A stretch of DNA of 64,000 nt, taken from the NCBI GenBank assembly GCA_034780895.1, contig JAUZTB010000057.1:20531823-20595822 (forward strand). The letters are read 5' to 3'. The position numbers are program-made. Of the stretch, positions 29,301 through 32,300 are shown in pieces. The stretch comes from Rhynchobatus australiae (Eukaryota). Each line of letters begins with the position of its first letter. The stretch's first letter is position 1.

Positions 29301-32300
29301 AGCACTCTAGTGAACCTTCTCTGCATTGCATCCAGCGCAAATAAAATATTCTTAATAGGAAGACAAAAACTATATGCAGTATTCCATCTACAGTCTAACC
29401 AGGCCCCGTAAAGTTGCATGTAAACTTCCTTGCATGTATCATCCTTGCAATTGAGGTCAACATTCCATCAGTCTTCCTAATTACATGTAGTTGTATGCTA
29501 GCCTTTTACATTTCATGTACTTTGACGCCCAACATTTTGTAATCTCGATCTGTTTCAATTTGTTTTTTGTTTCATTCTTCCACATTATACTCCATCTGCC
29601 AACTTCCTGCCCACTGATTTTAATATTCTTGTATTCCTTTGGAAGCTCTTTGCCTCCTTGCTACTTGCGAAACCCACCTTTTTTTGGTATCATCAACAAA
29701 TTTTGCTACTTTACACTCTGTCAAATCACCCAGGTCATTAACATGGAGTATAAATAATTGAGTCCTCAGCACTGGTCCCTGAGGCATCCCACAGCTTCCT
29801 GAGTACCAATCTGAAAATGATCCATTTATCCCAACTCTCCATTTTCTATAAGTTGGTTTGCCAGTATATTATCCCCAACCTCTGTTATCCTGTGCAGTCA
29901 CCATTTATGAGACAACCTTTCAAATGTATTTGGAAGTCCAAATGCACTACATTCACTGGTTCCTCCTTTATTCATACTCAAGAACGCTACCAAATTTGTC
30001 ACACAATTTTCCTTTCTTAAAACCATGTTAATTGCTTGATTGTCTACTGTTTCTTAAAAATGCCCTGCTATTACCTCAATAGTAGATTCTAGCATTTCCC
30101 CAACTATGGATACTAAGCCAGCTGACCTCTTTAGTTTCCTGCTTTATATCCTCTCTTGAAAGGTGGCATAACTGTTAGGGTTTTCCACCCCTCTTTGACT
30201 TCTCCAGAATCCTGGGAATTTTAGTAGATTACAACCAGTTCATCCACTATCTCTGAAAGCACTTTTTAAACTTTAGATTTGCAAGTCATCCGATCTCGGG
30301 GACTTGTTAGCCTTAACCCCAGTCGCTTACCTAGTACTTTTTGTTCTAGTGATTGTTTTATATTCCACCCTCCTTGTAACTCCCTGATTATCTACCATCA
30401 TTGGGATGTTTTTAGTGTCTCCACCATGGAAACGGAACCAAAATAATTATTTGGAATCACTGCCATTTCCCATTATTAACTTCTCCATCTCCTGTAAGGA
30501 ACCAGTGCTTAGGCACACCTTTTTATATACTTTTAGAAGCTGTTATTCTCTTTATATTATTTGTTTATTCTTGTACTCTAACTCTAATTCTTTTACACAT
30601 CCTTTGAATTTTGCTTTTCTTTCCCCAAAGAATCTGCTTGATCAGCTGAGTTTTTCCAGCATTATCTTTTATTTCGTAAGAAGGCAATGTTTTTCTTGAT
30701 ACTTAAACATGTACCTTTCTATTAGCCTCGTTCTTTTTTGCGCTGTGTAAGAGTTGGGAGGAGTGGAAGGAAGGGGGAATAGAACCCTCTGCTTTTATTA
30801 CGGTTGTGCATTTATTACAGCTTTGTTTAAACTTTGGTCTATATTACCCATTGGTTTTTAATCACCCTTCAGCCTTTCAATAAAAGGCAAGAGGAACAGA
30901 CCAAGCATTTGGAATAACACAGACCAGCTTTTCATGGAATCCTGTTTTAAGATGTATTCTAAAATAAAGTGGAAAGGATGTTGCTTGCAGAAATTTTACT
31001 TTTCTCCTATCATTGAGAATCCACATTTGGGGATGCCTTNNNNNNNNNNNNNNNNNNNNNNNNNNNNNNNNNNNNNNNNNNNNNNNNNNNNNNNNNNNNN
31101 NNNNNNNNNNNNNNNNNNNNNNNNNNNNNNNNNNNNNNNATTTGGGGATGCCTTAGCTATTCTAAGGCATACAAGAAAATAGGATATTCTGTTATAATCT
31201 CCATTGTGCTGATTTCACCAGAGTGACAATTAGGTTCTCCACATGCCTGTTGATGAAGAAAATCTGTCAGGGTTCCAGATCATCATTAATACTGAATGTC
31301 AGCTGAGAACAAGACCAGACTGAAACCGTACTTGATGTTGAAGGTTGCTTGTAAATAATTTGAGTTAGAAACTTGAGGACAACTGAAGTGTATAGAATAG
31401 TGTATGGAGAATCAACTTGAGTGGCTTTGGGGAGGAATTAAACAGGGCACATTAGTGATGTTCAGACTGGAGTGATAGGGCTAATGTTCAATCCTTAGAA
31501 CCTCCATTGACCAATTCTTATTTTAGCCCTATTATGCTTGGGGAGAAGGAGGTGGAGAGGTGATGAGCACAATGTCCAGCAGATGGCGTTCAGCGCTTCC
31601 TATTTGGCTACACATTGCTGAAAGGAACAAATTTTAATAGAAGTATGGAAAAAGCATGTGTACAGCTTAATACTGAAAGAAAAATCTACAGAAGAACTGA
31701 CATGCCAAAATTGATATAAGCTATTATTGATGGGGGGAAAATTCAATATTCCAATTGCATTGCTTTCGACTGGGTAATGGTATTTAATAGCAGTGTTTGC
31801 ACATGGTGCCTGTATTCTGTCATTCTTTTCACCCCCACANNNNNNNNNNNNNNNNNNNNNNNNNNNNNTCATTCACTCTCACAGTTCCTTTATAACCTGG
31901 TACGTGATGTCTACCTGTAGCACGGTTGCTTTAAGTGTTTACAAAACAGAAGTTGCTTGTTCTTAAAAAAAAATTGTGATTCACATTCCTCAGAATGGCT
32001 TGTATATCATCTTCTATTGGAAATGCTTCCTATCACTGTCAGTAAGCAGTGTCCAGCACTCTGCTTGCTTGCTTTTCCAGAGCAAACTTGATAACTCTTA
32101 AGAAATGCATTATTTGAGCATCTAAGCTGATTATTTTTCTCAATTTCTCAACAGCTCCGGAAGATGAAGAGGAGAACAAGTAATTCCCTTATAAAATTTT
32201 CAGAAATCTAAGGTTCTTTTGTTATCGCGTGCATGTGTGTTTTTAAGCACAACTACCAAGACCATTGCATGTATAATGTGCAACGATAGTATGCTATTTG

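What the first reader, a model, noticed from the sequence alone, without database searches (positions are those of the whole stretch)
32155..32183. SERCA2a-type exon encodes APEDEEENK*, resembling SERCA1b DPEDERRK rather than AILE*
Seen: the strong acceptor directly upstream of the 2a-like 3'UTR gives a 9-aa acidic tail. Known: mammalian SERCA2a ends AILE and SERCA1b ends DPEDERRK, which shares PEDE with this tail. Inference: the SERCA2a and SERCA1b terminal exons are homologous, and AILE is a derived shortening.
Basis: partly seen in the sequence, partly recalled or inferred. Interest (0 to 1): 0.7.

Follow-up and report, generated by a model that had tools for sequence, protein, structure and literature searches.

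The report
Shark-and-ray SERCA2 short-isoform acidic tail exon
This is the last small exon of the heart-type calcium pump gene of a shark or ray, giving the pump a nine-residue acidic tail that is already annotated in related species, so it is real but fairly ordinary.

Summary
The window carries most of an elasmobranch ATP2A2 (SERCA2) gene on the + strand. The last common exon ends ...NYLEP plus a split-codon G at 26176. Reading through the donor gives a SERCA2b tail. Splicing to 32155 gives APEDEEENK and a TAA stop at 32181-32183.

All 8 annotated 1003-residue elasmobranch SERCA2 proteins I retrieved end in a 9-residue acidic tail. The stingray tail, APEDEEESK, matches 8 of 9 residues. This supports acceptor 32155 over 32081, which would give EQT*.

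- PEDE occurs in 1 of those 8 tails; sharks have VMDDEEENK, VMEDEEENK, AMDDEEENQ or ATDDEEENQ.
- The long SERCA1 tails I recovered from ray-finned fish read xK(D/E)xN...KKW. None resembles DPEDERRK, so the PEDE match looks convergent.
- The tail is not an alternative to AILE. Its first four residues occupy the same positions as the 4-residue tails of all 21 bony-vertebrate short isoforms seen (AILE, AKLE, AREE, zebrafish APED).
- Homology of the SERCA1 and SERCA2 terminal exons is plausible. Both follow a phase-1 intron, and basal fishes share x-(K/R)-(D/E)-(D/E).
- I could not tell shortening in bony vertebrates from lengthening in elasmobranchs, because no chimaera or lamprey short isoform was recovered.

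Low to moderate interest.

The parts
526..24580 (+). Upstream coding exons of ATP2A2 (SERCA2), matching residues about 182-954 of the annotated relatives. HSPs lie at 526-612, 7318-7791, 8885-8974, 14389-14490, 15307-15441, 15504-15644, 15957-16190, 17462-17803, 19165-19383, 20559-20720, 21462-21515, 22188-22352 and 24461-24580.
   Evidence: tblastn of three annotated elasmobranch SERCA2 proteins against the window. Pfam E1-E2_ATPase scores 98.5 bits on 7285-8004. Some exons are partly masked by N and were left as they are.
26077..26176 (+). Readable part of the last common exon (...[33 protein letters not shown] plus the split-codon G). The exon start lies in the masked stretch 26032-26075. 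An internal, optional 5' splice site, G|GTAAAG, lies at 26176/26177.
   Evidence: The exon matches PDB SERCA2a and SERCA2b chains at residues 961-994.
26177..26325 (+). Read-through extension encoding the SERCA2b tail [49 protein letters not shown] and its stop. The first AATAAA after it is at 27207.
   Evidence: The 82-residue query matches the SERCA2b chain 7e7s_A at residues 961-1042 (142.6 bits). It is 96% identical to Carcharodon carcharias SERCA2 isoform X1. Poly(A) hexamers are.
26177..32154 (+). Intron of 5978 nt that is removed in the short (2a-type) isoform. Its 5' part doubles as the 2b coding extension and the 2b 3'UTR.
   Evidence: Inferred from the donor at 26176/26177 and the acceptor at 32154/32155.
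32127..32154 (+). 3' splice-site signals: a CUGAU branch-like element (32127-32131), a pyrimidine tract (15 of 18 bases, 32132-32149) and aaCAG.
   Evidence: Read directly. The crude acceptor score is 12.7, 13th of 765 sites.
32155..32183 (+). Coding part of the SERCA2a-type terminal exon. With the G from 26176 it reads APEDEEENK and then TAA. The coding bases form a purine (GAR) run.
   Evidence: The motif is unique in six frames. It matches 8 of 9 residues of the Hypanus sabinus tail APEDEEESK, and has the same length and the same DEEE core as all 8 annotated elasmobranch tails.
32184..32950 (+). Likely 3'UTR of the short isoform, up to the first AATAAA at 32930. A second AATAAA is at 33147. 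The true end is unknown.
   Evidence: Hexamer scan. There is no transcript evidence.
32081..32154 (+). If it were used the tail would be EQT and a stop.
   Evidence: crude score 14.3. None of the 243 named proteins examined has such a tail.

Best explanation
The window holds residues about 182 to the end of the ATP2A2 (SERCA2) gene of an elasmobranch. It is not human. By exon-wise identity its closest relative in the database is a stingray.

The gene ends as the vertebrate SERCA2 gene is known to end. The last common exon has an internal, sub-optimal 5' splice site right after ...NYLEP and one G.
- If that site is not used, translation runs on into the 49-residue SERCA2b tail (an eleventh membrane helix and a luminal end), and the message ends at poly(A) signals in what is otherwise intron.
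- If it is used, 5978 nt are removed and the G is joined to 32155. This gives the short, SERCA2a-type isoform with the cytosolic tail APEDEEENK.

The 9-residue acidic tail, (A/V)-x-(D/E)-DEEE-(N/S)-(K/Q), is the elasmobranch form of the 4-residue tail of bony vertebrates. Its fixed length and invariant DEEE core across sharks and a ray show it is under constraint.

Shown: the sequence, the reading phase, the 2b read-through, and the tails of the relatives.

Inferred: that the junction 26176^32155 is used in this animal; that the short form is the muscle and heart form; and that the tail is cytosolic and tunes pump kinetics, as the 8-residue SERCA1b tail is reported to do.

The PEDE shared with mammalian SERCA1b is most likely convergence within a short, charged, fast-changing tail.
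For: Gene identity:
- E1-E2_ATPase domain.
- Read-through tail matches the SERCA2b chain 7e7s_A at 961-1042, 142.6 bits.
- Best named hits are Carcharodon carcharias at 96%, Chiloscyllium punctatum at 95% and Hypanus sabinus at 90%.
- Exon-wise identity is Hypanus 754/809 = 93.2%, seven sharks 90.2-91.3%, Callorhinchus 86.0%, Latimeria 87.0%.
- ANAPC7 exons lie convergent downstream.

Splice anatomy: donor G|GTAAAG at 26176/26177; branch-like element, pyrimidine tract and CAG before 32155.

Tail:
- All 8 annotated elasmobranch SERCA2 proteins of 1003 residues end (A/V)x(D/E)DEEE(N/S)(K/Q), and Hypanus ends APEDEEESK.
- That motif followed by a stop occurs once in six frames of the window.
- All 21 bony-vertebrate short isoforms have a 4-residue tail starting with Ala from the same split codon, and 15 of 21 end in D or E.

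Convergence of PEDE:
- Only 1 of the 8 database elasmobranch tails has it.
- All 22 long SERCA1 tails of ray-finned fishes have K or R at position 2, and a frog has EKEKIH.

Function: a review reports that the SERCA1b tail halves Vmax in microsomes (PMC10058886, section 12 read).
Against: - There is no transcript evidence for this animal. The relatives' proteins are database predictions, and I could not see what supports them.
- My crude acceptor score puts 32081 slightly above 32155.
- No holocephalan, cyclostome or SERCA3 tail was recovered, and no SERCA1 long tail from a cartilaginous fish. The evolutionary reading therefore rests on elasmobranchs against bony vertebrates, plus SERCA1 of ray-finned fishes and one frog.
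- The tails are short and of low complexity, so positional similarity is weak evidence either way.
- A protein-level function of the tail is untested. The last 4-5 residues of SERCA2a are not even seen in crystal structures (bioRxiv 10.1101/344911, passages).
Confidence: 0.85

Rival explanations
1. The PEDE core is ancestral sequence kept in both SERCA1b and elasmobranch SERCA2a, so the two terminal exons are recognisably homologous at sequence level, and AILE arose by shortening.
For: PEDE is shared with DPEDERRK (tail quoted in PMC10058886). The intron phase is the same and the position nearly the same. Zebrafish SERCA2 ends APED.
Against: PEDE is in only 1 of the 8 database elasmobranch tails. 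Sharks have M or T at position 2 and mostly D at position 3. All 22 long SERCA1 tails of ray-finned fishes, and the frog tail, have K or R where mammals have P. Close relatives of zebrafish have ARAD, AQVD and ARVD. The SERCA1 donor sits one codon earlier, NYLE|x against NYLEP|x.
Confidence: 0.1
2. Direction A. The ancestral jawed-vertebrate short tail was long and charged (about 6-12 residues). Bony vertebrates gained a stop at codon 5; for example GAA to TAA takes one base change.
For: The long SERCA1 tails are 6-12 residues in the fishes and frog seen, and the elasmobranch SERCA2 tail is 9. Codon 5 in the window is GAA, one change from TAA. With paralogues as outgroup, long is the commoner state.
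Against: No outgroup for SERCA2 itself was seen. The homology of paralogue tails beyond position 4 is not evident: NLVSKKWD against EEENK.
Confidence: 0.45
3. Direction B. The ancestral short tail had 4 residues. The elasmobranch stem lost the stop and read five codons into the 3'UTR, and this extension then came under selection.
For: All 21 bony-vertebrate tails have exactly 4 residues, across coelacanth, bichir, teleosts, a turtle, a lizard and birds. A single stop-loss is as cheap as a stop-gain.
Against: A read-through into UTR would not be expected to give a clean DEEE-N-K run. The run is invariant in length and core in 8 of 8 relatives and in the window. That shows constraint, though not origin.
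Confidence: 0.35
4. The real acceptor is 32081 (or both are used), giving the tail EQT-stop. APEDEEENK would then lie in the 3'UTR.
For: My crude acceptor score is 14.3 for 32081 against 12.7 for 32155.
Against: None of the 243 named proteins examined ends that way, and all 8 elasmobranch short isoforms have the 9-residue acidic tail. A conserved open acidic reading in exactly the right phase would be an odd accident.
Confidence: 0.05
5. The purine run GAAGATGAAGAGGAGAACAAG is kept mainly as an exonic splicing enhancer that helps recognition of the far-off terminal exon. The acidic peptide is a by-product.
For: The 21 coding bases after the first two codons are a GAR-type run directly behind the acceptor. 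GAR runs are classic enhancers (general knowledge, not tested here). The donor is sub-optimal, GTAAAG.
Against: There is no DNA from relatives to compare synonymous with non-synonymous change. The protein-level pattern, with N and K/Q kept at the end and a fixed stop position, fits protein constraint at least as well.
Confidence: 0.15

Closest known systems
Annotated short isoform of elasmobranch SERCA2, 1003 residues (Hypanus sabinus, Scyliorhinus canicula and S. torazame, Chiloscyllium plagiosum and C. punctatum, Hemiscyllium ocellatum X2, Rhincodon typus X2, Stegostoma tigrinum)
   Same: Same gene, same junction after NYLE(P/A), same tail length of 9 residues, and the same DEEE core. The Hypanus tail matches 8 of 9 residues.
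   Different: The window's protein is not identical to any of them; the best exon-wise identity is 93.2%. Position 8 is N here and S in Hypanus. Sharks have V/A-M/T-D/E at positions 1-3 where the window has APE.
SERCA2a terminal exon of bony vertebrates (AILE in two birds and a lizard, AMLE in a turtle, AKLE in coelacanth, AREE in bichir, APED in zebrafish)
   Same: Same optional donor after NYLEP plus G, the same phase-1 split codon giving Ala, and a short cytosolic tail whose fourth residue is usually acidic (15 of 21). The alternative is the SERCA2b read-through.
   Different: The tail has 4 residues there and 9 here, and there is no DEEE run. Here I saw only that the PDB SERCA2a chains have 997 residues and align to ...NYLEPA at 994.
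SERCA1b (neonatal ATP2A1 isoform), tail DPEDERRK
   Same: A short, charged cytosolic tail encoded by a small terminal exon after a phase-1 intron just behind TM10, and the four residues PEDE (tail from PMC10058886; phase).
   Different: - It is a different gene; the window's gene has the SERCA2b read-through.
- The donor is one codon earlier (NYLE|x).
- It is made by skipping a stop-bearing small exon rather than by using an internal donor (recalled).
- It carries RRK, while the window's tail has no Arg and is far more acidic.
- The long SERCA1 tails seen in fishes and a frog read xK(D/E)... and do not contain PEDE.

Membership tests
ATP2A2 (SERCA2) gene | P-type Ca2+-ATPase coding exons with the highest similarity to SERCA2 orthologues | tested here: met
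   E1-E2_ATPase at 98.5 bits. The top named hits are all SERCA2 of sharks and a ray. Exon-wise identity to them is 90-93%.
ATP2A2 (SERCA2) gene | Read-through of the last common exon encodes the SERCA2b extension (TM11 plus a luminal end ...MFWS) | tested here: met
   The 82-residue reading matches the SERCA2b chain 7e7s_A at 961-1042, 142.6 bits.
ATP2A2 (SERCA2) gene | Conserved neighbourhood, with ANAPC7 next to ATP2A2 (the neighbourhood in other vertebrates is recalled) | tested here: met
   Minus-strand exons at 57512-57871 match APC7 chains at 133 bits, and TPR exons lie at 63483-63887. That this is the usual neighbour is from memory.
SERCA2a-type terminal exon | Joined to the optional donor after NYLEP plus G (phase 1), giving a short tail that starts with a G-NN codon | tested here: met
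   G at 26176 plus CT at 32155-32156 gives Ala, followed by 8 more codons and TAA.
SERCA2a-type terminal exon | Orthologous proteins carry the same tail | tested here: met
   8 of 8 elasmobranch SERCA2 proteins of 1003 residues.
SERCA2a-type terminal exon | The junction is seen in transcripts, enriched in heart and slow muscle | not testable with these tools
   No transcript or read data were available for this animal.
SERCA2a-type terminal exon | 3'UTR similar to the SERCA2a 3'UTR of other vertebrates | not testable with these tools
   No vertebrate DNA collection was on hand, and human sequence was not to be used.
SERCA1b-type tail | Encoded by ATP2A1 | tested here: not met
   The gene is ATP2A2.
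SERCA1b-type tail | Tail with acidic residues followed by a basic cluster (RRK in mammals; KKW in the fish long tails) | tested here: not met
   APEDEEENK has one Lys and no Arg. The mammalian tail is from PMC10058886 and the fish tails.
SERCA1b-type tail | Produced by skipping a small stop-bearing exon between the last common exon and the terminal exon (recalled) | not tested
   I did not search the 5978-nt intron for such an exon. Here the alternative to the short tail is read-through of the donor.

The most novel reading that the evidence does not exclude
The single pre-duplication vertebrate SERCA gene may have ended in a small terminal exon encoding a charged cytosolic tail of about 8-12 residues, starting x-(K/R/P)-(D/E)-(D/E).
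- This tail would survive as SERCA1b and the fish SERCA1 long form, and as the elasmobranch SERCA2 short form.
- In the bony-vertebrate stem it would have been cut to 4 residues by a stop at codon 5.
- The familiar SERCA2a would then be a truncated pump.
- The elasmobranch heart pump would keep a tail that, like the SERCA1b tail, slows turnover or changes regulation.
Probability: 0.3. Interest if true: 0.4.

Novelty: new member of a known kind. Interest (0 to 1): 0.25.

Why it matters
The SERCA2a C-terminus is usually treated as a trivial four residues. In sharks and rays the same exon gives a conserved, strongly acidic nine-residue tail on the cytosolic side, next to where regulatory peptides and the proton path lie.

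If the tail alters turnover, as the SERCA1b tail is reported to do, it would bear on how elasmobranch hearts handle calcium. It would also provide a natural variant for structure-function work.

For evolution, the collected tails give a clearer test of whether the terminal exons of the three SERCA genes share an origin. The tails are 9 residues in elasmobranchs, 4 in all bony vertebrates seen, and 6-12 in the SERCA1 long forms.

None of this is surprising enough to change the field. The tail is already in public annotations of eight related species.

Tried and rejected
- **33-residue query.** I used the 82-residue continuous read-through instead, which lists only 2b forms among its 120 rows.
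- **The listing of cluster members.** I called it on ten clusters to find hidden short isoforms.
- **Acceptor scoring.** It does not separate 32155 from 32081 or from about a dozen other sites, so I dropped it as evidence.
- **tblastn.** It cannot place the 9-residue tail because the tail is too short. For Hypanus the last HSP runs 3 codons past the donor by chance (GKE against APE).
- **Literature.** None of these searches turned up a paper on non-mammalian SERCA2a tails or on homology of the 1b and 2a exons:
  - 'SERCA2a' with 'AILE' as whole words: 0 papers.
  - 'DPEDERRK': 1 paper.
  - SERCA evolution, isoforms and C-terminus, listings only.
  - SERCA2b, TM11 and phylogenetic: 3 papers, listings only.
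  - atp2a2 and shark, listing only.
  - Artemia and crayfish SERCA isoforms: nothing relevant.
  - Subscription journals, where the older SERCA gene-structure papers sit, are not in the library.
- **Considered and not run.**
  - The search of protein representatives, because it carries no names and so cannot tell taxa.
  - Structure or complex prediction of a 9-residue disordered tail.
  - Typing a bird C-terminus into the PDB search to display AILE in mammals.
- **Joined model.** The spliced reading (last common exon joined to the tail exon) was not searched. Exons were searched one by one. The tail-weighted search used the C-terminal 40 residues of an annotated database protein, the Hypanus SERCA2.
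Full report
**What is in the window.**
Stop-to-stop frames on the + strand show a run of SERCA exons from about 526 to 26325. Pfam calls E1-E2_ATPase on 7285-8004 (98.5 bits).

The last common exon has its start inside the masked stretch 26032-26075, which I left alone. It reads ...[33 protein letters not shown] and ends with a G at 26176, before GTAAAG.

Reading straight through that donor gives [49 protein letters not shown] and a stop at 26325. The 82-residue reading matches SERCA2b chains of the structure database over residues 961-1042 (142.6 bits). SERCA2a chains of 997 residues match only to residue 994. The gene is therefore ATP2A2, with the known optional internal donor.

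**Which animal.**
- The best named matches are shark and ray SERCA2: Carcharodon carcharias at 96% and Chiloscyllium punctatum at 95% for the last exon, and Hypanus sabinus at 90% for a variable exon.
- Counted exon by exon, leaving out masked positions, identity is 754/809 = 93.2% to Hypanus, 90.2-91.3% to seven sharks, 86.0% to Callorhinchus, 87.0% to Latimeria, and 85.3% to Polypterus and Danio.
- The window is from an elasmobranch that is not itself among the proteins returned. It is not human.
- Downstream on the minus strand lie exons of ANAPC7 (133 bits to APC7 chains; TPR matches).

**The observation.**
- One search shows ctgattatttttctcaatttctcaacag|CTCCGGAAGATGAAGAGGAGAACAAGTAA. With the G of 26176 this reads APEDEEENK-stop, at exactly 32155-32183.
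- The site has a CUGAU element at 32127-32131, 15 of 18 pyrimidines at 32132-32149, and CAG.
- My crude acceptor score places it 13th of 765 AG sites between 26331 and 40000. The splice signal alone does not decide.
- The motif [DE]DEEE[NS][KQ]-stop occurs once in all six frames of the window, here.

**Relatives.**
I searched exon by exon and did not search the joined model. A third search used the last 40 residues of an annotated database protein, the Hypanus SERCA2.

Of 294 proteins stored, I set aside 51 unnamed ones and examined 243 named ones.
- 115 have a 2b-type tail.
- 10 lack the ARNYLE-type landmark.
- 118 end otherwise.

Among those 118:

| Group | Tails seen after the last common exon | Count |
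|---|---|---|
| Elasmobranch SERCA2, 1003 residues | APEDEEESK (Hypanus); VMEDEEENK (two Scyliorhinus); VMDDEEENK (two Chiloscyllium, Hemiscyllium); AMDDEEENQ (Rhincodon); ATDDEEENQ (Stegostoma) | 8 of 8 have 9 acidic residues |
| Bony-vertebrate SERCA2 short isoforms | AILE (two birds, a lizard); AMLE (turtle); AKLE (Latimeria); AREE (Polypterus); AREV; APED (Danio); ARAD, AQVD, ARVD, APAE, ARDD, ARAI, ARAL, ARIL, AGAV | 21 of 21 have 4 residues |
| SERCA1 long isoforms of ray-finned fishes | 12 residues of the form x(K/R)(D/E)xN...KKW, e.g. QKDENLVSKKWD; bichir has EKDDKFMTKKWK | 22 |
| Frog SERCA1 long form | EKEKIH | 1 |
| SERCA1 short forms | a single P or A | several |

The 9-residue tails of the relatives settle the acceptor in favour of 32155. 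These relatives are database predictions, and I could not see their transcript support.

**What it is and how it works.**
This is the SERCA2a-type terminal exon. Either the donor at 26176/26177 is left unused, the message ends in the intron (first AATAAA at 27207) and the pump carries the 2b extension. Or the donor is used, 5978 nt are removed, and the pump ends in a short cytosolic tail (first AATAAA after the stop at 32930).

The donor departs from consensus at +5 and +6 (GTAAAG). This fits a regulated choice; that weak signals matter for this choice in mammals is recalled, not tested.

The tail keeps its length and its DEEE core in the window and in 8 of 8 relatives, so it is constrained. 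Whether the constraint is on the peptide or on the purine-rich RNA just behind the acceptor cannot be told without DNA of the relatives.

On function there are only two indirect leads.
- A review reports that the 8-residue SERCA1b tail halves Vmax and suggests its arginines act on the membrane helices (PMC10058886, section 12 read). The elasmobranch tail has no arginine, so that mechanism would not carry over unchanged.
- In crystal structures the last 4-5 residues of SERCA2a are not seen (bioRxiv 10.1101/344911, passages).

The resemblance to DPEDERRK (tail quoted in PMC10058886) rests on PEDE.
- PEDE is in the window and in 1 of 8 database elasmobranch tails.
- Position 2 is M or T in the seven sharks.
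- It is K or R in 22 of 22 fish SERCA1 long tails, and K in the frog.
- It is K or R in 11 of 21 bony-vertebrate SERCA2 short tails.
- P appears separately in rays, in zebrafish (APED) and a sucker (APAE), and in mammalian SERCA1b.

The tail is also not 'rather than AILE'. Counted from the junction, APED occupies the positions of AILE, and 15 of 21 bony-vertebrate tails end in D or E at position 4.

The broader idea, that the SERCA1-long and SERCA2-short terminal exons descend from one exon, remains plausible and has better support than PEDE.
- Both follow a phase-1 intron. The SERCA1 X1/X2 pairs Q/P, E/A and V/A share the first codon base.
- In bichir the two tails begin EKDD and AREE.

One difference remains unexplained: the SERCA1 donor lies one codon earlier (NYLE|x against NYLEP|x).

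**Shortening or lengthening.**
All bony vertebrates seen have 4 residues and all elasmobranchs seen have 9. Codon 5 here is GAA, one change from TAA, so either a stop-gain or a stop-loss takes one step.

With the SERCA1 long tails (6-12 residues) as outgroup, a longer ancestor is slightly favoured. I give 0.45 to truncation in the bony-vertebrate stem and 0.35 to extension in the elasmobranch stem.

The only Callorhinchus protein returned was a 2b form. No lamprey or SERCA3 protein was among the rows listed, and no long-form SERCA1 tail from a cartilaginous fish was recovered.

**Novelty.**
The tail is already present in public annotations of eight related species, so the exon here is a new member of a known kind.

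I found no paper that discusses it.
- 'SERCA2a' with 'AILE': 0 papers.
- 'DPEDERRK': 1 paper.
- Broader searches gave nothing relevant in their listings.

The library lacks most subscription journals, and supplements were closed. None of the papers I opened needed them.

**Left unchecked.**
- The '2a-like 3'UTR'.
- Any transcript evidence.
- The joined model.
- The closed contig collections, which would not have held vertebrate genes of use here.

Noticed in passing
window 55266-55580, 57512-57871 and 63483-63887, minus strand: Exons of ANAPC7 (anaphase-promoting complex subunit 7), convergent with ATP2A2. The exon at 57512-57871 matches APC7 chains at residues 378-454 (133 bits), and the others carry TPR matches. 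They bound the space left for the ATP2A2 3' end.
   Followed up: partly
window 49735-50578 (+) and 61699-61950 (+): Retroelement remains. One is a reverse-transcriptase fragment (RVT_1, 28.5 bits, just under Pfam's cut-off). The other is an ORF piece that hits ALKBH8_N (34.9 bits), which I take, from recall, to be the usual signature of a LINE open reading frame tail. GC content rises to 0.44-0.47 at 48001-52000.
   Followed up: partly
window 32160-32180 (+): The tail's coding bases form an unbroken GAR-type purine run (GAAGATGAAGAGGAGAACAAG) directly behind the acceptor. It could act as an exonic splicing enhancer for a terminal exon that lies 6 kb from its donor.
   Followed up: no
database proteins P0225/P0226, P0198/P0199 and P0164/P0165 (SERCA1 of sturgeon, eel and Denticeps): In SERCA1 the split codon comes directly after NYLE. 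In SERCA2 one more residue (P, or A in carpet sharks) is encoded before it. The two donors are offset by exactly one codon, and the fish SERCA1 short form ends in that same P or A.
   Followed up: partly
window 26032-26075, 19325-19351, 20720-20729 and other N runs (24 in all, 2876 bases): Several masked stretches fall inside or at the edge of ATP2A2 coding exons, including the start of the last common exon. They were left unfilled, and exon starts there are not defined.
   Followed up: no
database proteins P0123, P0124, P0125, P0122, P0126 and P0005 (carpet sharks): Orectolobiform SERCA2 has NYLEA where the other vertebrates seen here have NYLEP. The residue just before the alternative donor has changed in that lineage in both isoforms.
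   Followed up: no
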